Shown: positions 1,163 to 37,913 of the stretch, piece after piece
Numbering within the stretch: the first letter of the stretch is position 1
Layout of the letters: each line of letters opens with the position of its first letter
Source: Harriotta raleighana
Taxonomy: Eukaryota
Length of the DNA: 64,000 bases
Assembly (NCBI GenBank): GCA_050575255.1
Contig: JBNZDD010013686.1
Coordinates: forward strand, 2,609,155 to 2,673,154
Direction of reading: 5' to 3'
Notes under the pieces: generated by a model
Databases searched by the model: none
What the model saw: the letters and a program-made list of their open reading frames with translations, nothing else
Told to the model about the DNA's origin: nothing
Program-made: the position numbers and the translations under genes

Positions 1163-1267
1163 CAAGAGAGACGAGAGAAGCTGTGGGACCCTCCACATCG
1201 TGCAGTTTTGGCAAATGCTCACAGAAAACTGAATGACTTCAACAAGAACAATGCAAGCTTGTCTCAG
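1163..1267 (+). CDS. TPP2: TPP2-like exon [35 protein letters not shown]
   Basis: Tandem acceptor taag/cag, GT donor; similar to TPP2 KERKEKIWDPVHR. Confidence 0.85.
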
Positions 1268-4200: not shown

Positions 4201-6584
4201 CAAAGCCTGCCCCGTTCTTATTGTATCTGATAATTGGGAATAGACCATGCATCTTTTGGATATATCGTTTATGCATTATCCATCACTTTTATTTGTTCTT
4301 CTTTCTAGAGCATGCATTGATACCAGTGATTGTGGTGATCTCAGTAACTGCACAGTTCTCAGGAATTACAGAGAAGCCCATGAATATGCTCAATTGGGCA
4401 AGTCTGAAATGCTGAATTATTCTGTCAACGTGTATGATGATGGCAACACACTTTGTATTGTTACCAATTCAGGTGAGGCTGTGAATAAATATTTGAGGGG
4501 AAAAAAATGCAGAATATCTGTCTTGTGTTACAGATGGTGAGAATAAATAGCACAGTTGAAGACATCTTAAACATGTATTTTTTTCCAATAGGATCTCATG
4601 GAACACATGTAGCTTCAATAGCTGCAGGACACTTCCCAGAGAATCCTGAAATGAATGGTTTAGCCCCTGGTGCCCAATTATTGGCTGTCAAAGTTGCTGA
4701 TTCTAGATTAAACACCATGGAAACTGGGACGAGCATAATTCGAGCAGTAAGAAGAACTTTGATAATGAGCTTTAGAAATTTCAACAGTAAATAATGATGT
4801 TTTTGCTCCATACTTTGTATTGTAACGATGTTCATAACTCTCATGGTCGGTATCTATTTTTCTCTTAGCATTACGGTCATTCTTTAATGTAGCTCTTAAG
4901 TTTTATTCAGTGGGAAATAAAATGTTGCCTTTTGCCAGTTGCAAATAGCACTGATCTGTTTTTCAGCAAAATATTTGCAAGCTTATTTATCTTAAACTTT
5001 TCAGATGATTGAGGTGGTGAAGTACAAATGTGATCTGGTAAATTACAGCTATGGTGAATCAGCTCATTGGACCAATTCAGGGTAGGTAAAATATCCATGA
5101 CATTACAAGTTTAATTGTATAGCTGGCAGAAGTTTAAAGGACAGGTAACTCAGCTATTAAAAATATTTTAAGCGCAAACTTTTTTTTAGTTCTCAAGTGC
5201 TACTAAGAACTAAGAACAGTGAGGTGCTTTAGCTTCAGTTTAACAGCTGTAGTTTACCTAAACAACAGGATTTAGTTTGCCTTATGATGCATAGTGAAGT
5301 TGTCTTATTTGCTGTTGCAAGTAAGAACCATCAGGTCAGTAACCAGTTGTAATATCTTTGTAACTGCTCAAGTTTAAGCAGACTGCTAAAATCTGCTGGC
5401 ATTTATGTTATGCTGACCATTTATAGGAATATTTTTTAAAATCACAATTCCGCGATTAGTGTAAATTCACTGCCTTAGTCTAAAACTTGCATATGAAGAA
5501 TGGCCACTTAGTGAGTGGTCAGAAGCCAGTTTGTCAAGCTACGTGAGGCAGTGTCAGCAGGAGAAGAGAAAGGATAAAAAAAAGGAATTGAGTTATTCGA
5601 ACATTTCTTTCAATCAGCTCTGATACTTGGGGGGGGTGGGGCGGCGGGGTAATTTTAGACATAATGTTAGGAAATCAGTTCAAGGCAGGATTCAAAGATT
5701 TGGGGAAATTGACCAGAAAAGAAGTACATCATTTGTGAGAGGAGTACTATAAATAAATATGACTGCATTTGACTGTGAGATTGTCTATATTATAGGTGGT
5801 AATTTTGCACCCTTGGTGCATTCAAGAATCCTGTGTGAAGTTCAGCAGCAAGCCCCTTTTTCATCTGTTATTTAAGCCTTTTTGATATGTCTAGTAGTAC
5901 TGTAGTACTGTCATTGAAGGCTATAATTATTTTTCATTTCTGTAGCTTATTGTTTTATTCAGAATTGCAAAATATTGCTTTTATTAGAAACCACGTTACT
6001 GACTGTTAAAAAGTAATACGCTATGGCTCATTTCATTTAGATAATTTAAATTATAACTTAAATCATAGTTTTAAATAGCAATAATGGTTAGAATGGTTGA
6101 GGGAGTACAATTTACAAGTGTAACATCATGTGCATTATTTGTTACTTGTACATTTGAATAATTTGTTCCAATCCTCTATTTAGGCGAATATCAAAGGTGA
6201 TCAATGAAGCTGTTTGGAAGCAAAATATTATCTTTGTGTCCAGTGCAGGCAACAATGGACCATGTCTTTCCACTGTGGGGGCCCCAGGTGGTACTTTAGC
6301 TAGTATCATCGGTAGGTTTTTAAAAACAAAAACATATTAAACCAGCAACAAAATGTAACCATCCAAATGATAAATGAGATTTAATTAAAATGCTGTTTTC
6401 CCTAAGACGAATATTGCATTTGCCCGTATAGTGTGTTAGTATCTGTTTACCTATATGCCCTGTTTTCATGTTGATTTTGTGAAAATCATGGTTATTGTGG
6501 TTCCTGCTACCCACATGTTGAGATTGAATATGTTTCTAGAGCTTTGATAAATTTCTTGCTTGTAGCACTGATTATTGAGCACCT

Positions 6585-6628
<44 letters not shown>

Positions 6629-9600
6629 NCCCCCCCCCCCCCCCCCCCCCAAAGAACAGCCTTGCGTAATTGTAGAGTAACTTTTCCACAACTTTTCTAA
6701 TGTGTTGCTTGCATGCAGATATAAACCGGATGTTTAAAAAAAAATTAATGCAGCTTTTCATTTTCAGGTCTAATTTCATTCATTTCTATATTCCCATGTG
6801 TTCTCAATGGGTAAATGCATTCTTCTTTGTTCTACTAAGTTGTTGAAATTNCTTGCATGCAGATATAAACCGGATGTTTAAAAATAAATTAATGCAGCTT
6901 TTCATTTTCAGGTCTAATTTCATTCATTTCTATATTCCCATGTGTTCTCAATGGGTAAATGCATTCTTCTTTGTTCTACTAAGTTGTTGAAATTGGGAAA
7001 ATCCCAGGATTCATTGCTTAGTCTGTGTCAAGTAGCTGATCGCGGATGGGATAATGGTGCCACAGCTATAATTGTCATTGACATCTCTGGGTAATGACAT
7101 TAAAAGCTTGCCAGAGTGCCTGTTCCCAGATGAATATCCAGTGAGAATTGCTGGAAAGCATGGATATATATCCATCCGTAAAAGGGAAAGATCAGGTTTA
7201 GCTTTTTTCCTGTGGTTGCATAGCCTGCTGACATTTTTCAGGCCAACATGAACATAAGTAACAAACAGAAGTTGCTGGGAAAACTCAGCAGGTCAGTCAG
7301 CATCCGTGGAGAAAGGAAAGTGAGTTAACATTTTGGGTCTGACGAATTAGATTTCCAGCATCTGTAGTATTTTGTGTTTTATGAACATAAGTAATTTGAA
7401 TGAGGAATCAGAATACCACCAATACTTGTGGGATTTTACACTGGCAGTAAAGCAGCTACAGGGAAATGGGAGAACATACTGCTATTTTTTAATACATATA
7501 GAAAAGGAAAATGGAAGCCAAGCAAATTTGGAAGTGTGAGTGCATTAGAAATCTCTGGAGGATATAATTCCTTTCAACCTGTTTTTTTAATGGTGTGAAC
7601 AGGAGGCGTTTTTGAATCAAACCAGTACAGCTGTTTACCTGGCAAGTTCTGCATTTGCAGAGAGGAAATGTTTGAATTGCTCTGGACCCTATAGAGCTAC
7701 TCATTCATTGAACCAGTAGCTGATACCAATTGAGCCTTGAAATAGCATGTCTCCAAGAGACAGTGAGAAGAAAGTGCTAGGTTTCTTCTACAGGGAGTTT
7801 AATTATTTATGTGGAACTAAATATAAATACTCCTGTACTCTTGTACTTGCTTTCTTGCAAATGTAAAGCTTCTAAAACTACATTGTTTATCTATTGAAAG
7901 TACAGAATCTCCGGTTATGCTACGTTAAGAATGTTGCCAGCACTAATGTCCTTGACTGAATCCTTTAGGTGTTGGTGCATATGTTACTCCAGAGATGATG
8001 ATTGCAGAGTACTCCATGCGGGAGAAATTGCCTGCCAATCCGTACACATGGTCATCAAGGGGACCTTGGTAAGAGGCAGTTTAAAGCTGGCGGTATTACN
8101 ACACATGGTCATCAAGGGGACCTTGGTAAGAGGCAGTTTAAAGCTTCTTTTGTACTTGTTCTTGCTGCATTGTGATAAATATGGCTGGCGGTATTACAGT
8201 AAAAGTGCTGACTGGGTAACTGGTTCATTGGATACAAAAAGAAAATGGCACATTGCAGATTTCAGCACCAAGTTTCTTGATTGGGAAAGAAAATCATTTC
8301 TGTATCAAAATAGCAATACTGAGGGACGTATAGGCCAAATCATTGAGCTAATCTAAACCTTCAGCAGGGTCTACAAAATTTTGTGGGACATATAATGCAG
8401 CTGATTTCACCCCAAACCCTCCCTGAAAAATTGAATAGCTTAATGTACGCTGAAGACAGAATGCAAAAGAAGAAATAACTAGTTGACTATTAGCATGTCT
8501 CACCTCCAAACTAAATGTTCTAGGATTCCCACTACATTGCTTTTGAAACAAGACCTGATAGCTTCTTCTTCTTTAAATTCACCAGAACATTTCAGACTCC
8601 TGTTTGCCTGTCATTTAAATGAATTAAATTTCTCATCTTTCAAGTTGTCAATTTTTAAAATTCTCCACTTATTAATCTGATCTGTTCCTCACATGGTTAG
8701 TATTTTAACTGCTGCCTATTCCTTATGAATCAATATTGTTGCTGTACTTTTGATTGCACTTGACAGCAGTTACCTGAGAAGTACTCTGAGATGCCCCATT
8801 TTTCTATTGATTGTACTAAATCCAAATATATATTATACCTTCCTATATTTGTGTTCCCAGACATATAATTGTATCTCTGAGCTAACGCTTATCTTTGTTA
8901 GTACTGATGGAGCTTTGGGAGTATGCATCACTGCACCAGGGGGCGCCATAGCTTCTGTGCCCATCTGGACCCTGTGTGGCAAGGAGCTAATGAATGGAAC
9001 GTCTATGTCCTCTCCTAATGCTTGTGGAGGCATTGCGTTGATCCTCTCAGGTACGGTAACACACCATGCTGAAAAATCTTACATTGGAAATCAGGGATAG
9101 CATAGATATAATCAAATCATAATATAGTTTTACATTATGTAAATTTGTTTTCTTTTATTTTCCTACTGCATTGGAAGGGCAACTGTCATTTTAACATTAT
9201 CAACACCAGCATAAAAATTGCATTTGTAGAGCACTTTTCACTTCAGGCAGACATTTCAAGGAGCTGAATAGCCAGGGGCCAGGACCCGAGCATGGGGCTT
9301 GGGTGGTCAGTTATTGAAGAATAAATTACAATTATACATTTGCTGCATTTCAAATATTCATTTACATAAAATAATCCGTGTTGCAGGTGGAACGTGTAAT
9401 CCTGGGTAACTATCACATTCTGGTTGCAAAAATCTCTCTTAGGGCCAACAGTTGTCAAATGTAAGCTTCTAAAATATATCTTTAAAATAATCTCTTACAC
9501 AAATGGGAGCTGGAAGGAATTTTCTAATGTGTCCTGAAAAGAGATGTGCTCTGAGACCATTCTATTTCTCCGAGCCATAACACATAATTTATCCTTAAGA

Positions 9601-12600
9601 AATTGGGATCATAGATGCCATTTTTGTTATGTTTTTCAGCATGCTGTACTTTTTGAAACAGTGTTCTCCCTTAAGTAATTTTTTTTTAAAAAGTCTAATA
9701 GATGCATAATTTAGCAATTTAGTAAGTAGTGAATCGCTATTACTATTCATGTGTACGTATTTCATAATTTTATTAATTTTTTGTTTAGCCATTTTTGTTG
9801 TGTTTATATTGATTGAAATGGAAATAATAAAGAGCTTTTGAGTTACTGGTAGTACAAATTAAGCAATGTGGTTAAAAGGTTGTGTCCAGTGGTTGCAGTC
9901 TGTGTTCCGGTGATAAGTTTTATTATTCGGGATGATAACTTTAATATTACTTTGCGAATCATTACTGATTCAATGCTTGCTGGTAACTGCATGCAGCAAT
10001 AGGTCAGGATTCATTGAATCACAGGAAATGTAGTTTTGACCCATCACTGCATACAGATTTACCAGCTGCATTGAATTATACCTGCACAGTGTATATTACT
10101 GATCAAAATCACATGCAAACTTGCATAAGTTGTCTAAAATACAATTTTATTCAGTAATCTGTAATTTTAGGGTATGAAGATATCTATTGATCATAGCTCA
10201 TCACACTGTTAACCAAAGTTTTTGTTTCACTACTTATTTGGGCTCTGTCCAGTTTGAAATGTTTTGAGATAGAAGTTACGTTTTTGATGTTGAAGCCAAA
10301 CTTGTGCTCCTAACTATTACCGCTGCTCCCTTATCCTCCATTACGCATAACAGCCAAAACTTTTTGAGCCCAAAGTGTGTGTATTAGTAACATTATAGTT
10401 TGATTGATCTACCAAGATATATTCACTGCTTTCTTGACCTTGCAGTTTTCAGTCCACAATTCTTCATTTGTCTTTCTCATTTCCTGTAGGATTGAAAGCT
10501 AACAGCATTGCGTATACTGTGCACTCAGTGCGTCGGGCACTCGAGAACACAGCTCTGAAAGTGGAAAATGTTGAATTGTTTGCACAAGGCTGTGGAATAA
10601 TTCAGGTAAATATTAAATTTACTAACTGTTGAATATGTGAATAATTTTAAATGAATCTTTCGTGGTATGCTTCTAAATTAGATTTTACATTAGTCATAAG
10701 GATTGTCATGATATTGCTTTATGAAATTATACATATTTTTACTTGTCGAGCATACGCAGGTCAATTATGGCATAGGAGTGATAGAGTAGAACATCCTGTC
10801 CTGGTGTCAATCTGCAAAACTGATGTTTGGTACTGTACTCAAATTCAGTAATGAAAAATCCAGTCAAATCCGGTTTGATTTGAATTTCTATTCCAGAGAT
10901 GAATAGACCAGTGTTGTAATACACTACGCCATCTGTCCCATTTTATGCTTGTTTGATGATCTATTCAGTATGTGCTGCATTACTTGTAAACTAATATTCA
11001 TTATCTTGATGATCATCCACTATCCCTCACCATCTTGCCACAGTTGGAATCTGCAAAGTTCATGAGAGCAATAAAAACTGAGCGTGTATGTTTTCAGCAG
11101 TTATTGTGATATACTTGTGTATATATTTTTACTTTCACTAAAAGTCCTGAATAAAAGTTAACAAAGAGTGTTCATTCATTGTATGCATCTGGGACTCTGT
11201 GCTCCAGGATAGGTTTCCTTGGTAACATTTTTATTTTCATGAACAGATTGAAAAAGCCTACGACTATCTCACTCAACATGTCGCAGTAAAGAGCACAAGT
11301 TTAGGCTTCAACATCAAAATAAGCCAATGGCGTGGAATCTACCTCAGGGAGCCTGCATATTTATCTGTGCCAATCGACTTGTCTGTCTGTGTGGAGCCAG
11401 TATTTCCTGAAAATACAGGTACAGAAAATGCAACCCCAAATTCACTGATAAATGTTTTATGCTGTATCCTGAGGACAACAAAGCCATATGTGGTTGAGTA
11501 ACTGGCATTTTTCCTGTTTGTTTTTAATCAATGTTTTTTTTCAAGCCAAATTGATTTTGTTTTCCAAATCAAAATTTCACAATATAGTTTTTACATGTAT
11601 CCTTGAAAAAAATCTCCTTTAAGCAATCTATGTAGTTAAATGCACAGCGCATTTTTTTTTAAACATAGGATAATCAATTTTCTCTCCTTCCTATTCTGTG
11701 CCCAGCATTTATTCAATTCCACAGTTGAATTGCTGAATATTTTGAAAATTGTATTGAAATATTGATGTATCTGTAAATATTGGCCCTCTCACTCCGCAGT
11801 CTAGAATGGCTCAAAATGATTGCTTTCATATTGTTGCAGTTGTGAGTTATTACAGACTAGCAAATCTCAGCTGCATGTGAATTTTTTTGTCCTTTCTCAT
11901 TGAGAACCCTCAATGCTCTCTCACACCTCCTGGTGGCTGAAATGAAGACTGCAATTTGATAATTGCATGCTTGAAATGGTGTGGTAGGGTTTGAAATGAG
12001 AAGGAAATAAATGGGACTTGACAGTATACACTTCGAGCAGAAGAAAGATTAAGTGAGGGTGGGTAACCAGAGTGACAGGATATTAAAAATTTATTTTGTA
12101 AAAGGGTGGTGAAAAGGAATAGAATAATAATTTCTGATTTCAATGATGAGTAAAATGGTCAACCAAGAATGGATAATGGTAAGGGGAGGTTATGTGGGAA
12201 CGTCATTCTGTAGCTGCGAGCTGTTCAGAGTGAGTAAGTATGATTTATGTTTGAGTCACTCTCTGTGCCATCTCTGTATCTTGCTTTCTGCCTCTATTCC
12301 CTTCACCATGTTCTCATGAAGTAATAGATTTCTTCTCTGTGGGTGTTTTATTTTATAGGTATGTGTGTCACTGTCTGTATTTCTTATCTTTCTGTCTTAT
12401 CTGTCTCTGAAATTTTCCCTCCCTTTTGCACACAGTCACCCATACTCCTCTGTTTCAAGTGTGGATCCTTTAAATTGAAGTTATAGTATTGAACAAATAT
12501 GACTTGAGTAGCAAATCTGTTCTGGTAATATTTTCCTGTGCAATATGTTCCCATGTGTGGGAAAAACTGGAGAAATTGTGTATTTAAGATATTCTTGCGG

Positions 12601-15600: not shown

Positions 15601-18600
15601 TATCTTGTTTTGTATTAGAAGCAAGTGTTCAAAGTCTTATCAGAAATCCCTTTTTTAATCTTAAACCAGTGATGTTTTCTATAAGTATAGCACAGAGTTT
15701 AGACTCCGTATATTCCAGCAATCGAATGTTTTGGTGATCTTTTAATCAGTGGTTCATGGTTGGAACTTAATTCAGAATTTAATGATCGCCATTTAATTCA
15801 GAATCAATTTTGCTTACAAAGGGACTTTCTAACAGCTGAGTTAGTGAAGATAAAATGCCCATTATTGCCTACAAACTATCATTACTCTTCGTAACAGTAA
15901 ATCCTGTGAAGCACGTTAAGACTTTCAATGATAGGATATGGCATTATATCAAACGTAATAAATGTTATTATATTTCTAAGATTAAGTCTTAAAAATAAGA
16001 AAGGTTGCTGAATTCCTGGCCAGTGCTAAATTAATGGATCTCAAGACAGCAGTTGAGTACTTTAGGTAACTTAACTCCCTTGGTTCAGAGAAGGAGAACT
16101 CAGCGGGAGGTCCTTGCTTCTGGTCATTACCTTCTGGTCTCAAAATGCACTGTTGAGGATAGGATTGACTGATACGATTCCCCCAAGGAGAAAATAATGT
16201 GCTTCAACCAACCTTATAAATAACATGCCCCAGAAAGAGAGGAAAAAATGTGAGAGCTAGAAATCTGAAATATAGAAAGTGCTGCAAATGCACAACAAAT
16301 CAATCAGCACCTGAACAAGTCAATGGGATAATGCTTTGGTTGACACGCTCCATTTATCTTGACCAATGCATGAAAATCAAGCCTTCCATAGACTACTAGT
16401 ATGAACGTTTAGTGCAATTAAAAAAAAATGCAAATACTCTTATTCATTGTAAAATTAATTGATGCAAATAGATTGTACAAAAAAACAAAATTGATTCTGG
16501 GCCTGTCTGTTATTTTCTTCAGCATGCCTCTGAGGGTATTGTGAGGTTTGATGCCATCGCTTCACTGAAATATGAGGAGCTCTCTCCAGCTTTAACTCTA
16601 AAAAATTGGGTCCAGACTCTCCGGTAATACAAATTTAATTATTAATCGATTTTAGTGAGAAAACGTTTCATTTATTTTGAACTTGGTGCAAATTTTAATG
16701 TGCTGTCTCTTTTCCAATAGTGGGATCATTCATACCTCTTCATTTTCCTTTGACCATATCAAGTCAGGTGTACTTGTAATTGTGTTTGAAATATGTCTAA
16801 TAATTAAAGTTAAAGAGCGATTATTGAAAGGGTGTTTCTCTGTTTTGCAGCCCTGTGGAAGCCAAAACTAGACCTTTAGGATCACGTGATGTTTTGCCAC
16901 ATAACAGACATCTCTATGAACTAGTGCTGACTTACAATTTCAATCAGGTAACTGCCCATAGTGCAGCTCCAGTCAATCATTCAAAATTTGATGGACCTCC
17001 ACCTCGCTCCCTCCCTTGCCTCATTCAAGGCTGGTCTCAAGACCCTCTTTTTGTCTGTTGCCCTCCCAACTCTCCCTCCCCTCCTAACTCTCCCGTCCCT
17101 TCCCCCTACCGTGCCCCTCTCCCTTGCTCGGGTCCCGTCCTGACTGTTCAAGGCCTTGGGCGTCCTCCCGATATGAAAGGTGCTCTAAAATGTAATTTTG
17201 TTGTTATCAGTTTTATTCTACCGCTATTCTAATTGTATGATATTCTGTAGCTATGAGGTTAGCTGAGCTCAGACTTGACAGCTCAAACTTCCACAGGTAG
17301 TTTCACATAGTCTGAAAAGTGGGATAGAAAAAATACATAGCTAAACTTTATGCTACATCTGTTAAAGTACCATTTTTGTAATGTTATGTTTGGCAATATC
17401 AATCAATAATTACATTTATATAGAGCCTTTCACATCGAGAGGATGTCCCAAGGCGCAGAATAGTCAAGTAGGGATCAGAGCAGGGGACAGGGGTGGGGGG
17501 AAGGAAACTAGGAAAATTGACTGTATAGTTGTGAGTGAAATGCGGCAGCCAAATTGCACACAGCAGAATAACATACAAGACAAAGTACAATAAAAGTCTG
17601 TTTATCCGGCACCAGGACCTGGCCAATGTCCGTTAAAACGGCTTTCTGGTTAAATGGTCGGATCCAACTCCGAAAACCCAACACAAATTTTTTTTTAATT
17701 AAAAATTATTTTAACACATATTTTAATAATAGACTAAATCACAGATAATAATGGTCGAATCTGACGCCGAAAACCCAACACAAAAAAATTAACTTATTTT
17801 AACACATGCTATATTAATAATAGACTACATAATAGCAGAATATTGTATGGGTACTTTATTGTAAATGTTGTACGCTGTACCATATAAATAATAGTCTAAA
17901 TGCACTAATAACAGATACTGTAATAAACAGAATATTGTATTAATACTTTATTATTTATACTTAATTTCTGCAATGGCGGCCGCCACGGGAGGAAAAAAAA
18001 CGGCAGCGTGACTTTCAGGCTTTATTAGCGGCAAGCCGAAATACCTGTACAGTACTCTCGTGCGATAGTCGATTCATTAAATGTGCCACCGCTATTCTGC
18101 GGGATAACTTCTGGTTTATCAGATGGAGACTTTTTTTTGACGTACCATTTAAACGGAAGTTCCAGTTCATCGAGTCACAGATAAACGGGCTTTTACTGTA
18201 GTTTTAAAGTTCTAAAGTTCTGTCCCATATCTTTTTGTGTTGCCTCAGACTAAGACTGGAGATGTAACTCTCAGCTGCCCCTTGCTGTGTGACTTGCTGT
18301 ATGAATCAGAATATGACAGTCAACTTTGGATGCTCTTTGATCAAAATAAGAGGATGATTGGAGCAGGAGATGCTTATCCTGATAGGGTAAGAACACAACT
18401 TGTGAAATGTACCTGCTCGATCTAATTTAGGGGGACCTGAATATAAAAAGCTAATTATGATGAAGTAGCTTTGTGGAAGAGGATTGTGTTGGCGAATAAA
18501 CTTCCCAAACTTCTTATTCAAAATCATATACCAGTAGTTGAAGAGAAAACAAATTAACCTTGGCCGTGCATTGTCTTGAATTTCAGCAATGTGACAATTT

Positions 18601-21600
18601 CTCAGTTTTATAAACAAACTCGCTTGCACCAAACAAAACAAGGTCCCAATATGGTCTCTGTGCATGAGTGTTCTCTAAGGATTATGTTCTATCACTAAAA
18701 TGGAATCAATTCCCAGTGTTTGATTTGAATATGTTAATCCTTTTGTTGAAGTAAGCTTTTTATTAAATGCAATCTGCTTTCTTTGCAGTATCCCCTCAAA
18801 TTGGAGAAAGGGGACTATACTGTTCGCCTACAGATTCGTCATGAAGGGCTCACTGAGTTAGAGCCTTTGACAGACCTGCCTTTCCACATCAGTCGCAAGC
18901 TCCCATCGCCACTATCTCTGGATATCTATAAGACACATGCTAATGCTCTCCTGGGCAAGAGCAAGTTTGGTTCTCTCACACTTCCACCAAAATTCACTGT
19001 TCCTTTCTATGCCACTTCATTGCCAGATGACAAGTAAGTAATAGTGCAGTGTTACATATTATAGCAGCAGTGAAAAAGGAGGAAACAGCTACTGATTTAG
19101 CTGCCCTCTCTAGGGCCTAGGTGTGTTCTCAATTCAGTTCAAATTGGTTCAAGTTAATTCTTTGCAAAGACTGATTGATGTACAGTAGAGATGAGCCAAC
19201 CTGATGAACAGTGGAAATGAGCCAATAAGGTTCAAACTTTTTTTTATTCAGAAACTAGTTGAAGAAACCTTAGTGCAGGGCACCACCAAGTTTGAAAAGA
19301 GTAACAGAAAATCAAGATGAGTGAAGAAGTGGTAAGGTGATGCAAAGCTTGGACTTTCAAAGCCTATAGATGGCGCAAGAGGAAAATCCGAGGTAACACA
19401 TTCTATAATTTTTAGATCTGGGGAAAGATTGAGATATATTAAGAAACAGTGAGATGAGTTTGATTTCTACATAGGAGGATGCATGAAGAAACAGTTAGGA
19501 AAAGTGTGAAAATGTTGGCCATTGTGCTGTATATATCTGATAATGTAAATTTACCTTTCTTCTCTAGAGTTCCCAAAGGTATTGAGATTGGGTGCTATCT
19601 TAAAGGAGTTCTCACACTTTCCAAAACTGAAATGGGCAAGAAAGCTGTAAGTCCTTCTATTGTGAAACCAACATACCTCACATGCTATTTGTTTGAGCTG
19701 TGTGTTTATCTATCTCATAAGAATTAAATTCATTGCAGTAATCTTTTACTGGCAATGGACTTTTCTATCTAGTGAAAGGTGGACTGTTTTACTGTGCCTA
19801 TTGTTACTATTGCAGATATGTAATGTGCAGATTCCTGTACCCTGAGCCAGGGAAAGGGTTCGCTTGAAATATCAGAAATCGGCACACTGTATATATACCC
19901 TTGCGAACTTATATTCCCTTGTATTGTAGAAAACTAACTGCAATTATCTTTATAAGATAGCATTTAATAAAGTAAAAACATTCTTATTCCATACTGATTT
20001 AAAGATGATAGCATTCCACTTGCTTATGAATATCTTATAAATATTAGCCAGAACCTATTCTCTTTTTCTTCAGTGGTTCCACATAATATTTCACCGAACA
20101 ATTGCATGTTGATAAAGAGGTCTCTAAGGCCAATAAATATACTTGAATTGGGATAATGACAATAGCTTCAGTAGATTGACAGTTTCATGGTGGAGAGGAG
20201 CTTCCATGGCAGAGAACACTGTTATTGCACCTCAAGTAGTAATCCAGCTCAGGATCAAATGTCTAATGTCACCTGCTGCTAACTTATACAAACAAAGTAG
20301 TGGCAGGGGAGCAGGAAGACAGAGTAGGTTTGTGCAGTTGGAGACCAACTCCCACTGGATACAAGCCTTCAGCGCATGCTTGGAATGGCCCCAAGTGATG
20401 TATGTACCGTGCCAGTGTTACAGTCGGAGAAGGGAGGGGTCTTGAGTAAGGCTGAGCTAATGAACCACTCGGGAAGTCAGAACTGTGCTTCACCACACAG
20501 ACTACAAGCATTTATTTATCCATCATGAATTTGAACTAATGCATTTCAACAGTATCATTAGATTGGGTTGCCAAAATACCCTTATCATTTTGTTTTCAAT
20601 CAGAGATTATAAGTAAGGAATGGAACAGGCAGCCATTATTGCCATTTTATAAACTACAACTGGCTATTTATGACAGTCAGTACTTTTCACATTAGAACTT
20701 TGTACATCAGGTGACTATTTTGTTCTTGTACTCCAAATCTGATATGTAATGTTTGACCTCAGGCAAGTGGGTGGCAGGGGAGCAGGAAGACTGGCCTATT
20801 TTGTTTGCTTGCTGTTATCTGTAAACTGACTGCAGGAATATCTCATGCGTGCTGTTTTTGTTTCATTGTGGAGTTTTGCATGAAAATTTAAATGATTTTT
20901 TTTAACAAATTCAGTTCCAACTCTATCCTTGATCCACTTTAGTACAACATCCATCTCTTGTTTAAAAAAATGATAGATGTGTTACGCAACAGATAAAGAT
21001 GAATTTAATATCCTGCTGAGCCTTAGATTAATTATCTCTGTCAGTGTCTGTTAGGTGTTCCAGTAACTCCAGCAGTGGAATGATGGACCCAATTTGGTTC
21101 AAAACCAAAGCTAGGAATAAATGCACACATCTGCTACTTGTCAATGCTATTTCAACCAGCTGTAAGCCTTTATTCTTCTGTATGGAAGAGTTTGATCACT
21201 CCCTCTCCATGCAGATTGTTCGATGCTCTTAGTATAGGGAGATGTCCAAATTTGTAGTTGCTGTGATTATGAAATAGTTTTGGGACATGTACATTGGGCT
21301 TGTTTTGAGCATTGTAGAATTGAGTGTCATATTAAGGGAGTGAAGTTCTTAATAGAAAAGTTCACATTGTGTATGTTGATGAATCACTATACAAATATGT
21401 TACAAATAGTTTGGTAGCCTGTTGAGACACACAGATGACCATTGGGATAATTTAGTTTTTATTCAGAATTCATTCTGGAAGGTTAGAAACTTCATGCTGG
21501 AGTTGAGGAAAACATCCCATTAGTAAACAGTTCATGGTTTGTTAGCTGAGCAGATTCCAAATATAACACACTACAAGCTACCTGAAAGCTTGTGTCAGCC

Positions 21601-24600
21601 TTGCTTTTATTCATTTATGCTTGTTGAAGTGAAGGATTGATCCGCTAAAAATTGAAGCATTTTCTTCATTTTGTACCCACTGACAGAATAAGTACTTTGA
21701 ACTGTGCACAGTACATGATTTGTATAATGTAGAGCTTCACCGTCAATGAAACTCAAGATCCAGAGTCTGAAGAATACACTTATATTGTACACCATCTATC
21801 CTTGGGGTTCAATCGTTATGTGGAATTAGGTATAATAATAATATAGTGTAAATGTTCAATATGTTCCCAGATAAAATGGCCATTCGTACTTTATTTGCCA
21901 TATTAAATATTAAAGATATTAAATGCATTTTGGTGTATGCTTTGCAGAATGTTAGCTTGTTACACTGGTAAACATTCTGCATTCTTTTATTTGCAGAGTG
22001 TGCTCCCTGTGAACTACTATCTAGTGTCATCCCCAAACAAGACGAAGAACGGAAATAAAGAAAAGGCAAGCAGGGAAAAAGAGAAGGATCCAAAGGAGGC
22101 ATTTGATGAAGCTATGAGAGATCTCAAGATACACTGGTTACCAAAGTACAGTAAATGTCCTTTAATCCGGCATTTGATAATCCGGAAATCTTTATAGTCC
22201 GGCATCTGCGACGGTCCGTTTTTTTTCCAGTCTGCACATCTCTATGCGCATCTCTTCCCAGAGATCCTTCATTTTTTCCTCGGGAGTCCATCACTGACGT
22301 CACGTTTACGTCACTGACGTAACATGCGCATGCGCGCTTTAATAAGTGCGCGCAATTTATTATTTTTTTAAATTAACTTTCGGCGGGTGCAATGCCTCTG
22401 TAGGCGGCCCGTCTGCTTCGCCGGGATGGGGAGAGGTCTGAGTTTTGCTATACAGGTATGTAACATGGATAAGAGCACAGCACACTCAAATCCTCCCATC
22501 TCCAAGAGCAACATCCAATAATCCACCATATCTACTAATCTGGCACCGCCTAGGTCTCAACCGTACTGGATTGGTGGACTTTTACTGTACATAACATGAA
22601 TTCAGTTTATACAGTACATGAAATTCAATTGAGAATAACTGGACAGCAACCTAAGCTAAAACCTATGTCAAGTCAGTGTGTCATCTATCCAGAGTTTGAA
22701 TGATAGCTTTCAGAATTCCATTTCATGTCCGTGTGGGAGCAATTAGTGACCCATATGTTACACAACATGTAATCAAATTTCATGAGAAGTTCACTTTATT
22801 CCCTGTTGCCCCCTCTTTTTTGCAAACCCTTTTTGTTTTCTTGTAAGGCAAAAACACTCAAATATACTAAACCTTCAATATACAGTAAAAGCCCGTTTAT
22901 CCGTGATTCGATAAACTGGAAAATCCGTTGAACCAGCACCTCAAAAGAAAAAGTCCCGATTCGATAAACCGGAAGTTATCCGGCAGAATAGAGATGACGC
23001 ATTTAATGAATCGATTGTCGCACGCGAGTAGTGTGCAGGTATTTTGGCTGGCCACTAGTCCAGCCTAAAGTCGCACTACTGTTTTTTTTTAAAGTCGCGC
23101 TACTGCTGTTTTTTTCCTCCCGTGGCAGCCATTGCAGAAGTTAAGTATAAGTAATAAAGTAGTCATTATAGTAACTGCTATTAGTGTATTTAATCTATTA
23201 TTTATATAGTATTGTACAACGTTTACAATAAAATAGCCATACAATATTCTGTTATTACAGTATCTGTTATTACTGTATTTAGTCTATTATTTATATGATA
23301 CAGTGTACAACATTTACAAGTACCCATACAATATTACAGTAAAGCAACTGATATTGTTGTTATTTAGTCTATTATTAATATGGTATGTGTTAATATGGTA
23401 TGTGTTAAAATAAACTGTTCAACCAGAAAGCCGTTTAACCAGCATTGGGCAGGTCCTGTGGGTGCCGGATAAACGGGCTTTTACTGTATGAGCTTCAAAG
23501 AACTTAGCACAAAATAAGAGAAATGGAGAACTGTGCTGATTACCTCCTCTAGTTTCATTTTCTCCTTTTCTATTTTTTTTCTGGCGGTCTGAATGAGTAA
23601 ACAAAACAAATCATTTTCTGCAACAAATTCCCTACCAATCACAGTTTTTTTGTTGAACTCTGATCAAAGTGAGGATGTTGTCTGAACATGAACCTTTCAG
23701 AACCAGTGCAATATGTTTAGTCCTGCTTACATTAATTTAACATTGTTCTTATCCTATTCAATTTTGATTTTTCTATTACAGACTGGATCAAGGCTATCTA
23801 TATGACGAATTAGTTTCTGTCTATCCTGAACATTTACCTGTACATGTCGCTTACCTTGCTTACTTGGATTCAGAAAAGGTGTGTCTTTGTGCTCTTGAAG
23901 AAATTATATTTTATTGCTTCAATGAACAGAATGAACAGTCATGAATATTTTCATAATGCTCTTTTTTATATACCCCACATTATGTTCCACTTACAGTAAA
24001 ATTCCTTTAATCTGGTACCTGTTAATCTGGAATGCTTTATAATCTGGCATCTGCAACAGTCCGCCTTTTTCCAATATGCGCATCTCTATGCGCATCTCTT
24101 CCCAGAGAGCCTTCACACTACTCAGTGCATTTTCCTAGGGGCCCTTCACTGACGTTATGTTTAATAAGTGTGCATGCGAGTCCACAATTTAAAAAAATTA
24201 AAATAATTTTTGGCGGGTGGGATGCCTTTGTAGGCGGCCTACCTGCTCCGCCGGGATGGGGAGAGCTCTGGTTTTCACTATACAAGTATGCAACATAGAT
24301 AGGAACACAGCACACTCAAATCCTTCCATCCCTATTGTCCAATAATCTGTCATATTTGCTAATTCAGCACCGCCTAGGTCCTGAACGTTCCGGATTATCG
24401 GAATTTCACTGTATTTTGTGGAAGAAATTTCTCAAGGGTGCAACCACCCTTACTCTTAAAAATTACTCTTAAAACCCTTTTGACTTTAGAAGACTAGTTT
24501 TACCTACTTTAGTACTCCTGTGGCTCAGTGGTTAGAGCACTCGCCTTACATGCCTTACAAGCATGAGGCCTGTGTTCGAATCCAGGGAGATCAGGGCGAA

Positions 24601-27470
24601 ACCTTGGGCAAGTTTCCTTACTCCACATGCCTAATAATAATCCCTCCAAAAAAAAAACTACAATAATAAAATTGGTCATTTCAATCCATGACTGTTTGTG
24701 GGACACTGTTGTGCGCAATTGGCTGCCGCGTTTCGCCCACAAATATACAGTCAATTCACTTTACAGTATACTCTGTGAAGCGCTTTGGGACGTTGATAAG
24801 ATGTGAAAAGCGCTATATCAAATGCAAGGATTATTATTATTATCTATATTTTAATCTGTTTTAGGAATAGTATGGCCCTAAGTACCTGCTACAGTACCAG
24901 CATTAACAGAAGTCTGCCTGAATTTATTGTTCTCTAGGGAAATGGTGTGTGGAATCATTTTAATTATTCTAGCTCTTAGCAAGCATTTGACCATTTTGAT
25001 TACTTATATGGAACTATTTTTAATTTTGGTGGGGTAGTGCATGTCTCCTCTTTGCTTTATTACATAATTCTTTTACAGTATTACCTGTTAATTTTAGTAT
25101 TTTATATCTTTTTCTTAGAAAAGAAAAAGTTTAGATGACATTATTCAAGCAGCTGAACTAGTTCTATCCAAAATTGATCAAACTGCCCTGGTGACCCACC
25201 TAGCTTTGAAGACGGACCTTAGGCCTGATGCTGCTTCTATCAAAAGGTAAGTGGAAGGATTTTTTATTAAATATTTCCTATTTTTTGATATTTGAAACAT
25301 TTGCCTTTGCATTGTATAGGTTGGACTCCTACTTAGCAGTATTAGGGGTCACATTTACTGTCTGTTGAAAATCCCTTATAATCAACAAATGTAGGATTCT
25401 CAATTTATTTTGTACGTACCATTTTTCCATATACGAACATTATTTTCCAAAACATCTCATTTTCCTGACACTTATTGTCCCCAAATGACTTTATCCTCTT
25501 TATATTTTACAGTTTCAAACAGGGGTATAGAATTACTAAGACAGTTTGCTTGGACTTAGACTTTTATGCAGTCAGTTTATCTCTTTAATTTAACAAATGT
25601 TATAAAATTCCCAACGAAACAAAAGTTAAGCACATTGTTTCTAGAGGTGATCAGATATCAACAGCAACCATGAAAGCACTGCTAATATGTCTGCTTCCAG
25701 AAGCCTTTTGCACTGCAACACAAAAACTTGTGTAACAGGCCAGTCAGTCAACCCATAATTAGAATAAAGCTTTTAGGTTCCTATTTTAAAGCAATTAGTT
25801 CAATTTGTTCTGTAACTGAGATTACGCTGACCTTTCTTCTTTCAGTGAGATGGAAAAACAGAAATCTGCTCTGATTGATGCTGTCTGTCACAAAGGTTGT
25901 GCCCTGGCTGATAAACTTCTCCATCTCCAGTCACAAGAATCTACTGAGATTGATTCAGAAGAAATCTGCAATAAACTCACAGAGAGTTTCTATGATGTAC
26001 AGAAATGGATAGATATCACGGATTGTAAGGTAATTACATTTATTAATATTGATTATAACTATAGATTAAACTTTGATTATCATTTGCTCGTGGCACAGTA
26101 CAGTGAACTGTGGCTCATTTCAGAAGAAAGTTTCTGTTTGTGTCATTCTACTGTATATGATAAAACAGTGATGAAATGTCAGTGTTTGTGTGTTATTTAA
26201 TGGTTATTAAATTAGTTAGAATATTTCTTATAGAACCCCATTTTTATGCTTTCTTCTGATTTGTCAGGTTTAAACTAACTTGGGATGACTATAACAGAAT
26301 CAGGTTTATGTTTCCTTAGTTTCTATTTCGTCCTAAGGAATCACCATTTTCTTAGATAGAAATGTACAGTGTTGAAGTTTTATAGGTTTGAGACATCTAG
26401 AAGACGTGAAAAGCACTATATCAAATTCAAAGATTATTATGTGGTGGCACATATTTTTAATAATATTTCATATTTTAATATAATTTCACTGTGGTTCTTC
26501 TATTGCGTTAACATGTCTTCTATAGCATTGCAATACTAGCATTACTTACTAGCAAGTATGTTTATCATTCTCAGGCATTAACATTTGCTTACAAACATGC
26601 TTTGGTGAAGCAAACTTATGGGCGCGCCTTGATGTTTGCCTTCAAAATTGTTGAAAATAAGTCAAGTCAAGAAAATGCAAGGAATTGTATTCAGGTTTGT
26701 TTCATCTTCCCTTTTATCACTATTGAACAATTAGAATAATAAAATCTAGTCAATGTTTGATGTGTAATAATTGGTATGCAGCAGATTTATAGATGTGTAC
26801 TCTACAGATAAATATATTACTGGGTGTAAAAGGAAAAAAATTAAGGCATCTCAGAAAATTTAAATTCGAAGGCTTTTGTGCTGAAGTGAACAATTTGTTT
26901 CTGTGATTGTGATTCCAGTGTCCAGTTTCCTCTTCAGTGGCAGGTTTAGCGTTACTAGTTTATATTCCTTAAATGAGCACATTTCCACGAGTCAAAACAG
27001 GTTGTGCAATCATATTTCAAAATGAAATACAGTAGTTAATAGAACACGGAGTGGGAAAGATACACATTTTAGACATGATTATATCTGCAACATTATTCTG
27101 TATAAAATTTGTTATTATTGAATCCTGCTGGTAACTGGAACTGTGTCAAGTTTACCCATGAGAACGCCACACCCAATCCCCTGATTTACTTCCTATTTAA
27201 GTCTCATTGCATATTTTCCAACAATGAAGCGGACAGGTTCAAGAATGTTAGGTATTTTTAAGATAATCATGGATTTGCACTAGTTTTTTTTAATGTCTGC
27301 AGATCGTGAAAATGCTGTTTAATTAAATTGGCTGCATCAAAACACACCTGATTGTTTCATTGTTTACTGATCTCTTGCAGTTGATGAAAACCCTTGGATG
27401 GACACACTGTGCCTCATTCGCAGAAAACTCTCTGCTTGTGATGTATCCCCCAGATTATGTTCCGTTTTAA
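1163..27470 (+). CDS. TPP2: Tripeptidyl-peptidase II-like gene (subtilisin S8 family), 26 coding exons, 5'-truncated by the window
   Basis: Exons splice in frame with GT-AG boundaries and no internal stops. Motifs: [11 protein letters not shown] (catalytic His), SAGNNGP (oxyanion Asn), NGTSMSSP (catalytic Ser), C-terminus [13 protein letters not shown]...YPPDYVPF*. The catalytic Asp exon is not in the window. May be a paralog rather than the ortholog. Confidence 0.95.
2800..2924 (+). CDS. TPP2: TPP2-like exon EDKLILEDL...[15 protein letters not shown]
   Basis: AG/GT boundaries, conserved [12 protein letters not shown]. Confidence 0.92.
4309..4472 (+). CDS. TPP2: TPP2-like exon [11 protein letters not shown]...[13 protein letters not shown]
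   Basis: AG/GT boundaries, phase-compatible. Confidence 0.93.
4592..4746 (+). CDS. TPP2: TPP2-like exon with catalytic His ([16 protein letters not shown]...[11 protein letters not shown])
   Basis: Subtilase His motif, AG/GT. Confidence 0.96.
5005..5081 (+). CDS. TPP2: TPP2-like exon [25 protein letters not shown]
   Basis: AG/GT, conserved DLVNYSYGE. Confidence 0.93.
6184..6311 (+). CDS. TPP2: TPP2-like exon with oxyanion Asn ([15 protein letters not shown])
   Basis: AG/GT, SAGNNGP motif. Confidence 0.95.
6586..6650. repeat. Poly-C homopolymer spanning an N
   Basis: About 64 C with N at 6629; true length unreliable. Confidence 0.7.
7969..8068 (+). CDS. TPP2: TPP2-like exon [32 protein letters not shown]
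   Basis: AG/GT, WSSRGP motif. Confidence 0.95.
8902..9050 (+). CDS. TPP2: TPP2-like exon with catalytic Ser ([13 protein letters not shown])
   Basis: Subtilase Ser motif, AG/GT. Confidence 0.96.
10490..10605 (+). CDS. TPP2: TPP2-like exon [21 protein letters not shown]...FAQGCGIIQ
   Basis: AG/GT, conserved [12 protein letters not shown]. Confidence 0.94.
11247..11418 (+). CDS. TPP2: TPP2-like exon IEKAYDYL...RGIYLREP...EPVFPENT
   Basis: AG/GT, phase-compatible. Confidence 0.92.
12736..12893 (+). CDS. TPP2: TPP2-like exon [10 protein letters not shown]...[11 protein letters not shown]...HYTE
   Basis: AG/GT, conserved [11 protein letters not shown]. Confidence 0.93.
13198..13274 (+). CDS. 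TPP2: TPP2-like exon [25 protein letters not shown]
   Basis: AG/GT, phase-compatible. Confidence 0.92.
13775..13881 (+). CDS. TPP2: TPP2-like exon IDEASEY...[22 protein letters not shown]
   Basis: AG/GT, conserved EVPxGATWA. Confidence 0.92.
14498..14652 (+). CDS. TPP2: TPP2-like exon INLVSKS...HEFYK...AFPVI
   Basis: AG/GT, phase-compatible. Confidence 0.9.
15161..15277 (+). CDS. TPP2: TPP2-like exon [16 protein letters not shown]...SFHGL
   Basis: AG/GT, conserved CIARWW. Confidence 0.92.
16523..16623 (+). CDS. TPP2: TPP2-like exon [10 protein letters not shown]...LKNWVQTL
   Basis: AG/GT, conserved HASEGI and LKNWVQTLR. Confidence 0.93.
16851..16947 (+). CDS. TPP2: TPP2-like exon [32 protein letters not shown]
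   Basis: AG/GT, conserved PLGSRDVLP. Confidence 0.94.
16970..17210 (+). mobile_element. L2-like LINE 3' end
   Basis: FKAGLKTLF..., pyrimidine tract and tail CTTGGGCGTCCTCCCGATATGAAAGG...(TTG)n; related tails near 156, 3190-3340, 32200-32370, 35930, 36810 and 36990-37195. Confidence 0.6.
17588..18198 (+). mobile_element. MITE family A copy
   Basis: Same TIRs and internal sequence as 550-1037, TA flanks. Confidence 0.85.
18249..18386 (+). CDS. TPP2: TPP2-like exon [27 protein letters not shown]...GDAYPDR
   Basis: AG/GT, conserved LLYESE. Confidence 0.94.
18789..19033 (+). CDS. TPP2: TPP2-like exon [19 protein letters not shown]...TSLPDD
   Basis: AG/GT, conserved LKLEKGDYT. Confidence 0.95.
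19568..19646 (+). CDS. TPP2: TPP2-like exon [26 protein letters not shown]
   Basis: AG/GT, conserved LTLSKTExGKKA. Confidence 0.93.
21997..22145 (+). CDS. TPP2: TPP2-like exon, KEKE-rich (SVLPVNYYL...RDLKIHWLP)
   Basis: AG/GT, similar to TPP2 VIPVHYYL...RDLKIQW. Confidence 0.92.
22149..22587 (+). mobile_element. Tc1/mariner-type MITE, family B
   Basis: CAGTAAATGTCC / GGACTTTTACTG ends, TA flanks; second copy at 23994-24411. Confidence 0.8.
22883..23486 (-). mobile_element. MITE family A copy, inverted
   Basis: Reverse complement of 17588-18198, TA flanks. Confidence 0.85.
23782..23878 (+). CDS. TPP2: TPP2-like exon [32 protein letters not shown]
   Basis: AG/GT, phase-compatible. Confidence 0.9.
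23994..24411 (+). mobile_element. MITE family B copy
   Basis: CAGTAAAATTCC / GGAATTTCACTG ends, TA flanks, internal similarity to 22149-22587. Confidence 0.8.
24511..24843 (+). mobile_element. tRNA-derived SINE, near full length
   Basis: A box TGGCTCAGTGG, B box GTTCGAATC, tail ...AGCGCTATATCAAATGCAAGG(ATT)n; multiple copies in window. Confidence 0.85.
25119..25246 (+). CDS. TPP2: TPP2-like exon KRKSLDDII...IDQTAL...[12 protein letters not shown]
   Basis: AG/GT, conserved IDQTAL and RPDAA. Confidence 0.92.
25846..26029 (+). CDS. TPP2: TPP2-like exon [22 protein letters not shown]...KWIDITDCK
   Basis: AG/GT, conserved KGCALAD. Confidence 0.93.
26575..26694 (+). CDS. TPP2: TPP2-like exon [11 protein letters not shown]...NCIQ
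   Basis: AG/GT, conserved [10 protein letters not shown]. Confidence 0.93.
27381..27470 (+). CDS. TPP2: TPP2-like last coding exon [29 protein letters not shown]
   Basis: AG acceptor, TAA stop, AATAAA at 27486-27491. Confidence 0.94.
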
Positions 27471-29012
27471 TTTACGTGTCAGCAAAATAAAGAGCCTCCA
27501 TGTATTTGTTAATCAGGATTCAAACAGGCATGTATTTGAAAATTGGGATTACCTGGGTTTTGTTGTACTTCAGCTAATCTTTTTCATTAAAAAAAATCAC
27601 AACTTGTGGAAACATCAGACGATAATAGACTAGACTTTGCCATTATGTTAATGCAATAAGTTTCTGTTAGGTGAACTTATTGCAAAAAGAAAAACAATTC
27701 ATTTCAACTATAAAAATGTGCAGTCTTATCTCAGCCTATGGGGTTGTGTTTGTATTTGTTGTCTTTAAATTGCAGATATGGGAATGTTTTAATTTATTGA
27801 CTCATTTTAATTTGAATAATTCCATCCCTCATTGGATCTCCCACTGGCATTCCTCTTTCAACTAGCAGGGAACACTGCCTGGGGCTCAAACTTGTTTTAT
27901 ATGTAAATGGAAGTCGATTTTCAGATACTGAATGACAATTCCATAGCTGTGAAGCCAGTAGAATCATTACCTTAATCTCCTAAACTGAATTTTCCTGCTA
28001 TAGCATAAGTTTCTTGATTTTCCCTGTGAAAAAGAACTAGCAACGGTAAATGTTGGCCAAGTGCAAGATGCAAGCTGGAGCTCTCCAATTCTGAGTCTGG
28101 ACAATTCTGCTTAAAACTACCTTTTTTTTTAAAAAAAATGCCTCACCCTCTTTGTATGTTTTGCACCCTGTTTTGCATTTACAACATGAGCATATTACTG
28201 TGTAGCCTCAAACAGCTATTGTAGTTGGTAGTCAAGATTACTGGATGCAGACTTCATTTTATAAAAATGCAAGTTCTTTCTTGGATCAGAATTTTTTTGT
28301 CAATAAAAGTCTTCTCAATAAAAGTCTTCTCCTAGAAATGTGATGCTTTACTGTTTAAGGCATCCACTTGGAAGCCCATCTGAGATCTGACAAAACTCAA
28401 CACCCAGCAACTAGCCAACTCAACTGTCAGTTAGTTCTGAAACTGTTCACATGCTAAAGAATGTAAACTAAATGTCTAAAGTGCAATTCTCTGGCAATCT
28501 GACAATTATTTTGTAGGTGAATGATGGTTTTAATATGAGCAGTTTGTGGTACATGTTGCTTTTATGTATTGAGCTGCAGTGATTGCTTAATCTACATTAT
28601 TATTTCAGGGTTTTTTTAACAACTACTCTTTATAGTGATTTCATGAAATCAGTCACTTAGGTGCCTTCTTTATACAGAATTTCTCTTTTAGATTTTGGTG
28701 TTTTCAGTTATGTATCAATTGTTTTTAAATCAGCTACTGTATTTCCATTTGCTAGCTGTATCTCTGAGATGATGTGTGTGTCTGAAATTTGTATTGCTTA
28801 ATGGGTTGTCTCAAATTGTGAAGACAGATGCTTATAACTACCTGCATATTTTATAAATAAAATAAGAACTATTGCAAAATGTAACTGAGTCTCCAAAATG
28901 ATTTACCACCAGATAATAGGTGTAAATATATGTAATGTACTTTTATAAATGAATTGTTGCAAGATTGTGAGAATACAGTAGTTTGTTACAAAGTGCTAAA
29001 TTAAACCAAATC

Positions 29013-30644: not shown

Positions 30645-37913
<7,269 letters not shown>

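What the first reader, a model, noticed from the sequence alone, without database searches (positions are those of the whole stretch)
1163..27470. Intact, divergent TPP2-like gene in the F9-MCF2 block: candidate retained second TPP II (ohnolog)
Seen: 26 in-frame exons with catalytic His, Asn and Ser intact, ending about 3.2 kb upstream of F9, followed by convergent MCF2. Known: human TPP2 is single-copy and lies beside FGF14 in the 13q33-34 block (MCF2L, F7, F10), while the paralogous X block (FGF13-F9-MCF2-ATP11C) has no TPP2. The protein here also looks more diverged from human TPP2 than expected for this conserved enzyme, with many substitutions outside the motifs. Inference: this is the whole-genome-duplication paralog, lost in mammals. 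Since TPP II self-assembles into a giant spindle, a second subunit type could form separate or mixed complexes.
Basis: partly seen in the sequence, partly recalled or inferred. Interest (0 to 1): 0.85.

Follow-up and report, generated by a model that had tools for sequence, protein, structure and literature searches.

The report
Second TPP II gene in sharks
This is a second, well-preserved copy of the gene for the giant cell protease TPP II, most likely left over from the genome doubling at the origin of jawed vertebrates and kept by sharks, rays and chimaeras, and it carries a small fixed change near its active site that can be tested.

Summary
Largely confirmed. Window 1163-27470 holds 26 AG/GT exons giving a stop-free 1,110-aa TPP II, 3,174 bp before an intact F9 and a convergent Dbl-family gene. 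Exons 1-3, with the catalytic Asp, lie outside the window. The protein is 93% identical to one Callorhinchus milii TPP2 and 66% to a second one in the same species. Zebra shark also has both. Trees place this 'TPP2L' group outside shark plus bony-vertebrate TPP2. A shark-only duplication is rejected under LG+G4 (AU p<0.01) and weakly under C20 (p=0.04). Horn-shark TPP2L shares a contig length with F9, canonical TPP2 shares one with F7/F10 in coelacanth and tetrapods, and published skate data label these chromosomes 1-beta and 1-alpha. It is therefore most likely a 2R ohnolog. None of 166 named bony-vertebrate records belongs to the group, so the loss is probably bony-vertebrate-wide rather than mammalian. 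Of 80 deeply conserved columns 78 are kept. The two changed (KIGD to KVAD) are adjacent and fixed in all TPP2L. RefSeq already lists these genes as 'TPP2-like', but I found no paper describing them. Activity, expression pattern and mixed spindles are untested.

The parts
1163..27470 (+). TPP2-like (TPP2L) gene, 26 coding exons (5' exons outside the window): 1163-1267, 2800-2924, 4309-4472, 4592-4746, 5005-5081, 6184-6311, 7969-8068, 8902-9050, 10490-10605, 11247-11418, 12736-12893, 13198-13274, 13775-13881, 14498-14652, 15161-15277, 16523-16623, 16851-16947, 18249-18386, 18789-19033, 19568-19646, 21997-22145, 23782-23878, 25119-25246, 25846-26029, 26575-26694, 27381-27470 (stop)
   Evidence: splice sites, open frame; tblastn; alignment
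4592..4746 (+). Exon with catalytic His (4597-4599), the TPP2L-specific Val-Ala pair (4693-4698, KVAD in place of KIGD) and the first substrate-anchoring Glu (4720-4722); Peptidase_S8
5005..5081 (+). Exon with the second Glu of the double-Glu motif (5056-5058)
   Evidence: role of the residue recalled
6184..6311 (+). Exon with the oxyanion-hole Asn (6251-6253)
8902..9050 (+). Exon with catalytic Ser (9002-9004) and a TPP2L-fixed Gln-to-Glu change six residues before it (8984-8986)
11247..19033 (+). Exons of the central TPP II domains (TPPII_Ig-like-1, TPPII_GBD, TPPII)
   Evidence: Pfam hits on 4 exons tested in this span
19647..21996 (+). Intron at the position where canonical TPP2 can include a 13-residue exon; no match found here
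   Evidence: best score 15 versus 12.7 mean in shuffles (self score 65); absent from 6 of 6 named TPP2L proteins
27486..27491 (+). First AATAAA after the stop codon (candidate polyA signal; others further on)
30645..37913 (+). Coagulation factor IX gene, 8 exons, 487 aa, intact; synteny marker
44468..57672 (-). Dbl-family RhoGEF gene (MCF2 by position), convergent with F9: DH, PH and SH3-like exons. Further open exon-like frames continue to about 63950 and the 5' end is outside the window

Best explanation
The gene is TPP2L, the second TPP II gene of cartilaginous fishes: the beta-subgenome ohnolog made by the second vertebrate whole-genome duplication, kept beside F9-MCF2 in chimaeras, sharks and rays and lost early in bony vertebrates. 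Shown: intact exons, two paralogues per species in two species, tree position, F9 linkage. Inferred: the 2R/beta assignment and the timing of loss. It most likely works as canonical TPP II does: a cytosolic subtilisin-type exopeptidase (Asp-His-Ser) that anchors the substrate N-terminus on two glutamates, removes tripeptides, and is activated by self-assembly (inferred from conserved residues and domains; about 0.85). I think it was retained through partitioned expression and/or a tuned specificity. The fixed Ile-Gly to Val-Ala change sits at the position of subtilisin's KVL strand, which lines the S2/S4 subsites (recalled), so a shifted P2 preference is the most likely enzymatic difference (about 0.35).
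For: Two paralogues in C. milii (P0001/P0168, 66.4%) and Stegostoma (P0104/P0108, 67.1%), whereas canonical shark TPP2 is 76-80% identical to coelacanth. TPP2L is sister to shark plus bony TPP2, SH-aLRT 99 and 97 under LG+C20 PMSF in quick trees. AU tests under LG+G4 reject both alternative rootings in 5 of 5 outgroup sets. Relative-rate tests are non-significant in 14 of 15 comparisons. The gene has 25 introns, so it is not a retrocopy. Heterodontus TPP2-like and F9-like both lie on a 107,907,199-nt contig. Canonical TPP2 shares a contig length with an F7/F10-type model in 6 sarcopterygians and differs from F9 in 6 of 6 species where both were listed. Skate supplement: LER6/13 = 1-alpha and LER12 = 1-beta, with a Tpp2 bait on LER6 and Zic3 and Atp11c on LER12 (PMC10115646). 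Constraint: 78 of 80 deeply conserved columns kept, and 93% identity to C. milii versus 82% for the neighbouring F9. A full-length TPP2L open frame on contigs of at most 4.4 kb (P0106) implies a spliced transcript.
Against: Under C20/PMSF with the rival tree as guide, the shark-specific duplication is only marginally rejected (AU 0.042, KH 0.08) and 'canonical shark copy out' is not rejected (AU 0.12). The careful bootstrapped trees did not finish. Outgroups are distant, unnamed and long-branched, and no cyclostome was included. Canonical TPP2 and F7/F10-type models had different contig lengths in sturgeon and three teleosts. FGF13, exons 1-3 and this genome's own canonical TPP2 are outside the window. 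Only 120 of 2,598 hits were listed, so a very divergent bony-fish copy could be missed. No activity or tissue data. TPP2L evolves 1.16-1.45x faster than TPP2 between matched taxa.
Confidence: 0.82

Rival explanations
1. Chondrichthyan-specific segmental duplication of TPP2 that moved next to F9 and evolved fast early on, so that long-branch attraction pulls it to the root.
For: Found only in cartilaginous fishes. Long stem of 0.24 versus 0.09 substitutions per site. Only marginally rejected under C20 (AU 0.042).
Against: Rejected at AU p<=0.0055 in 5 of 5 LG+G4 tests, and relative rates to outgroups are about equal. It requires a chance landing in the block paralogous to the one holding TPP2.
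Confidence: 0.08
2. An older (1R or pre-vertebrate) duplicate rather than a 2R alpha/beta pair.
For: The summed stems between the copies are long (0.335 substitutions per site). No cyclostome sequence was available to date the node.
Against: The skate table pairs the two chromosomes as 1-alpha and 1-beta. The hagfish table shows one TPP2 locus, as two adjacent models on chr17.
Confidence: 0.07
3. The ohnolog is real but decaying or non-catalytic in this chimaera (relaxed selection or a structural subunit only).
For: The window's terminal branch is twice that of C. milii (0.052 versus 0.027). 9 of 77 differences hit positions at least 90% conserved among the other vertebrate rows. The catalytic Asp exon is not visible.
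Against: No stop or frameshift in 26 exons. His, Ser, Asn, both Glu and the Gly recalled as needed for assembly are kept. The Asp is present in 5 of 5 named full-length orthologues aligned. 78 of 80 deep columns are kept.
Confidence: 0.05

Closest known systems
Callorhinchus milii 'tripeptidyl-peptidase 2' (P0001) and the RefSeq/UniRef 'tripeptidyl-peptidase 2-like' models of Heterodontus, Hemitrygon, Stegostoma, Scyliorhinus and Pristiophorus
   Same: Orthologues: 93% and 76-78% identity, the same KVAD motif, no 13-residue insert, one clade at SH-aLRT 100
   Different: Automatic annotations only. The names do not mark them as a separate paralogue, and the C. milii one carries the plain TPP2 name
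Canonical vertebrate TPP2 (TPP II, peptidase family S8)
   Same: Five-domain Pfam architecture in orthologues, catalytic and double-Glu residues, overall length
   Different: 63-67% identity; 73 positions fixed in canonical TPP2 are changed in all TPP2L; KIGD becomes KVAD; central and C-terminal domains only about 58-66% identical; 13-residue insert absent; linked to F9 rather than F7/F10
Drosophila TPP II (PDB 3LXU)
   Same: Only solved TPP II found; aligns over nearly the whole orthologue at E 1.9e-259
   Different: Invertebrate protein; keeps IGD at the site changed in TPP2L
Ohnologs retained in chondrichthyans and lost in bony fishes (19 cases counted in PMC10115646)
   Same: Same evolutionary pattern, beta-segment location and somewhat faster rate
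   Different: The gene list was not in the supplement text I could search, so whether TPP2L is among the 19 is unknown

Membership tests
TPP II (TPP2) family | Subtilase domain plus TPPII Ig-like, GBD, TPPII and C-terminal domains | tested here: met
   Window exons hit S8, Ig-like-1, GBD and TPPII (7 of 8 TPP exons scanned gave a hit; the C-terminal one did not). Orthologues P0001 and P0102 have all five
TPP II (TPP2) family | Catalytic His and Ser, oxyanion Asn | tested here: met
TPP II (TPP2) family | Catalytic Asp | tested here: inconclusive
   Exon outside the window; present in 5 of 5 named orthologues
TPP II (TPP2) family | Double-Glu motif fixing tripeptide length (role recalled) | tested here: met
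   Both Glu in the window protein and all five orthologues aligned
TPP II (TPP2) family | Tripeptidyl exopeptidase activity | not testable with these tools
   needs an enzyme assay
TPP II (TPP2) family | Assembly into the multi-MDa spindle | not testable with these tools
   Subunits exceed the size limits of the folding tools; only the Gly recalled as assembly-relevant was checked and is kept
Orthologue of canonical vertebrate TPP2 | Groups with bony-vertebrate TPP2 to the exclusion of the other shark copy | tested here: not met
   Best tree excludes it in all models; that topology rejected under LG+G4 but not under C20; identity and linkage also favour the other copy
2R ohnolog | Duplication older than the shark/bony-fish split | tested here: met
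   weaker
2R ohnolog | Copies lie in paralogous chromosome blocks | tested here: met
   F9 linkage in the window and in Heterodontus, F7/F10 linkage of TPP2; skate 1-alpha/1-beta table.
2R ohnolog | Duplication younger than the cyclostome split | not tested
   No named lamprey or hagfish sequence was retrieved; only a table row for hagfish
2R ohnolog | FGF13 upstream, mirroring FGF14-TPP2 | not testable with these tools
   Outside the window; no animal genome collection available

The most novel reading that the evidence does not exclude
TPP2L is a functionally distinct second TPP II subunit. The fixed Val-Ala change at an otherwise near-invariant Ile-Gly beside the substrate cleft, with the fixed changes before the catalytic His and Ser, gives it a different P2 or prime-side preference or activation threshold. 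Where both genes are expressed it may co-assemble with TPP2 into mixed spindles of tunable specificity, in the way alternative catalytic subunits tune the proteasome.
Probability: 0.2. Interest if true: 0.68.

Novelty: new member of a known kind. Interest (0 to 1): 0.45.

Why it matters
TPP II is treated as a single-gene homo-oligomer in vertebrates (recalled). A second copy kept under strong constraint in holocephalans and elasmobranchs since their split shows that early jawed vertebrates had two, and that bony vertebrates probably lost one. It gives a natural variant for asking what the near-invariant Ile-Gly beside the active site does and whether the spindle tolerates two subunit types. 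It is also a hidden-paralogy trap: the C. milii TPP2L carries the plain name TPP2. The pattern itself (sharks keeping ohnologs) is well known, which limits the surprise.

Tried and rejected
Pseudogene: no stops or frameshifts. Exon duplication at 8101-8145 and the 144-nt repeat at 6705-6992 flank single-N gaps and are read as assembly overlaps. Neighbour as F10/F7: rejected by PDB scores (FIX 200.7, FX 189.3, FVII 173 bits), homologue names and tree. A desman TPP2 (P0011) scored TPP2L-like in the local screen but is canonical on global alignment, 95.6% to siamang. A 13-residue exon in intron 19647-21996 was not found. The skate label 'Tpp2-2' is not proof of two skate genes, because hagfish TPP2-1 and -2 are adjacent models that look like one split gene. 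The Atlas could not name outgroup P0310 or separate MCF2 from MCF2L, and the PDB holds only DBS for that exon. Cluster-member look-up gave no answer, so accession-level membership stayed unchecked. Careful bootstrapped trees did not finish, and two scripts failed technically and were rerun. No structure or complex prediction was run: full subunits exceed the limits and a pass would follow from likeness to 3LXU. dN/dS was not computed because no orthologous coding DNA was available. Two papers asked for by id were not held and the catshark supplement was unreadable; these may bear on novelty and expression.
Full report
Observation. I read the whole window and fixed the exon boundaries in scripts. 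Twenty-six exons from 1163 to 27470 all have AG acceptors, the 25 internal donors are GT, and together they give 1,110 aa and a stop with no interruption. Pfam finds Peptidase_S8, TPPII_Ig-like-1, TPPII_GBD and TPPII in 7 of the 8 TPP exons I scanned. The first 129 residues of the nearest full-length relative, including the catalytic Asp, have no match upstream of 1160, so the window begins inside an intron and the 5' end is unseen. F9 starts 3,174 bp after the stop. It is intact (487 aa), scores best against factor IX in the PDB, is 87% identical in its last exon to C. milii F9, and groups with F9 (SH-aLRT 85; 100 with C. milii F9). A Dbl-family GEF runs convergently on the minus strand. I call it MCF2 by position. 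A fused turtle gene model reads DBS, F7 and F10 in one direction (P0276), unlike the convergent layout here. No MCF2 reference was available for a direct test.

What it is. The protein is 93.1% identical to a C. milii TPP2 (P0001), so the window is most likely from another holocephalan (inference). A full-length search listed the best 120 of 2,598 hits. A top group of C. milii, Heterodontus, Hemitrygon, Stegostoma, Scyliorhinus and one unnamed record scored 2,193 bits or more, then scores dropped to 1,972 or less; the truncated Pristiophorus model belongs to the same group by identity. Below the drop are second TPP2 proteins from C. milii (P0168) and Stegostoma (P0108), plus Hypanus and Amblyraja. 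The two C. milii copies are 66.4% identical, while the second is 79.6% identical to coelacanth TPP2. Among the 176 named TPP2 records (13 unnamed ones left out), 6 carry KVAD and score closer to the new group, all chondrichthyan. One desman record crossed the score line as a local-alignment artefact. So 0 of 166 bony-vertebrate records, many of them redundant isoforms, belong to TPP2L. This is not an exhaustive absence test.

Age of the duplication. With unnamed distant TPP II representatives as outgroups, quick LG+C20 PMSF trees put TPP2L as sister to shark plus bony TPP2 (SH-aLRT 99 with 26 rows, 97 with 15 rows). The careful bootstrapped runs did not finish. AU tests under LG+F+G4 rejected a shark-specific duplication (p from 1e-5 to 0.0055) and the third rooting (p from 4e-5 to 0.028) in 5 of 5 outgroup sets. 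Under C20/PMSF with the rival as guide tree the preferred topology stayed best, but the shark-specific tree was only marginally rejected (AU 0.042, KH 0.08) and the third rooting was not (0.12). Relative-rate tests were significant in 1 of 15 comparisons. Between matched taxa TPP2L evolves 1.45x (C. milii to Stegostoma) and 1.16x (C. milii to stingrays, different species per copy) as fast as TPP2.

Synteny. No animal genomes could be fetched, so I compared the contig lengths reported for protein hits. Heterodontus TPP2-like and F9-like, both single-member clusters, lie on a contig of 107,907,199 nt. Canonical TPP2 matches an F7- or F10-type model in Latimeria, X. tropicalis, Ascaphus, Eublepharis, Ara and Discoglossus; three of those partner models are unnamed Gla-EGF-protease predictions. 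Canonical TPP2 differs from F9 in Latimeria, Amblyraja, Protopterus, Pseudophryne, Rhinophrynus and Triplophysa dalaica. It did not match the F7/F10-type model in Acipenser, Eucyclogobius, Synchiropus splendidus or Neosynchiropus, lineages with further genome doublings. For multi-member clusters the length may come from another member. In the skate genome paper (PMC10115646; passages, sections 6 and 7 and parts of supplement 2 seen), SI Table 3 lists LER6 and LER13 as 1-alpha and LER12 as 1-beta for linkage groups F/K/N. SI Table 10 has a Tpp2 bait on LER6 and Zic3 and Atp11c baits on LER12 at 37.6 and 38.5 Mb. With the recalled human order ZIC3-FGF13-F9-MCF2-ATP11C, this makes the window's gene the beta copy of a 2R pair. 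That fits the paper's statement that beta segments lose more genes and evolve faster. Which skate copy the bait names is not tested.

How it works. Using siamang numbering as a proxy for the recalled human labels, His264, Ser449, Asn362, Glu305, Glu331 and Gly252 are present in the window protein and all five orthologues aligned, and Asp44 in the five orthologues. Ser449 as the catalytic residue is also stated in PMC10879859 (passages). Of 80 columns in the window span that are at least 90% conserved across 127 distant TPP II proteins, the window protein and its orthologues keep 78. The two changed are neighbours, Ile296Val and Gly297Ala, fixed in all six TPP2L rows and in none of 17 canonical rows. 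Each original residue is found in 125 of 127 outgroups. They align with the KVL strand of subtilisins, which from recall lines the S2/S4 subsites, nine and eight residues before the first anchoring Glu. Other fixed changes lie just before the catalytic His and six residues before the Ser. The most likely mechanism is therefore an active cytosolic tripeptidyl exopeptidase, possibly with altered P2 preference. The central and C-terminal domains are only 60-63% identical between paralogues of one species, against 81% between canonical orthologues, which neither favours nor excludes mixed assembly. The 13-residue insert found in 3 of 4 canonical shark records is absent from 6 of 6 named TPP2L records and from the window intron. 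An unnamed full-length TPP2L with all catalytic motifs on contigs of at most 4.4 kb (P0106) implies that the group is transcribed and spliced somewhere.

Novelty. The genes exist as automatic 'TPP2-like' models. Literature searches for TPP2 with paralog and cartilaginous fish, ohnolog/FGF14/synteny and single-copy/vertebrates returned 0 papers. TPP2 with shark returned 5 unrelated papers, and searches listed nothing on this gene (listings only). 'TPP2' is absent from the whale-shark main text (PMC8455134, passages) and the elephant-shark supplement (PMC3964593). The hagfish supplement shows one locus as two adjacent models (PMC10972751). Most of the TPP II biochemical literature is outside this library, the catshark supplement was unreadable, and the skate paper's list of 19 shark-retained ohnologs was not in the text I could search, so prior notice is possible.

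Verdict. A real and apparently undescribed paralogue, a new member of a known family by a known route (ohnolog retention in cartilaginous fishes), with one sharp testable feature at the active site. Interest 0.45.

Noticed in passing
window 45897-46009 and about 44468-44565 (-): The MCF2-position gene keeps a degenerate SH3-like pair of exons (E 1e-5 to turtle DBS SH3 for the first; no Pfam hit). Human MCF2 lacks SH3 while MCF2L has one (recalled), so the chimaera gene may show the ancestral state.
   Followed up: partly
window 6705-6992 and 8044-8145: Exact duplications flanking single-N gaps (6851, 8100). The second repeats the 3' end and donor of exon 7969-8068. Probably assembly overlaps.
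   Followed up: yes
window 35242-35540 (+): The F9 activation-peptide exon is Asn/Thr-rich with a repeated motif and is longer than in C. milii F9.
   Followed up: no
P0208 and P0210: C. milii has two F9-like models, both 87% identical to the window's last F9 exon: a duplicate or an assembly copy.
   Followed up: no
P0250: A Rhincodon model named 'coagulation factor VII-like' groups with shark F9, so it is probably misnamed.
   Followed up: partly
representatives: 18 of 127 distant TPP II-like proteins carry Ser and Gly in place of the two substrate-anchoring Glu residues, which suggests a subfamily without the tripeptide ruler.
   Followed up: no
window TPP2L residues 306 and 369: Two changes unique to the window protein among the vertebrate rows (Asn to Ile before the catalytic Ser; His to Cys near the end of the subtilase domain) at positions otherwise invariant in those rows.
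   Followed up: no
P0168: The older C. milii canonical TPP2 model lacks the true first exon and so the catalytic Asp; likely a gene-model error.
   Followed up: no
window introns, e.g. 570-1040, 17585-18200, 22150-22570, 22885-23490, 24540-24840, 32560-32720: Several recurring interspersed repeat families seen by eye in the sequence; not classified.
   Followed up: no
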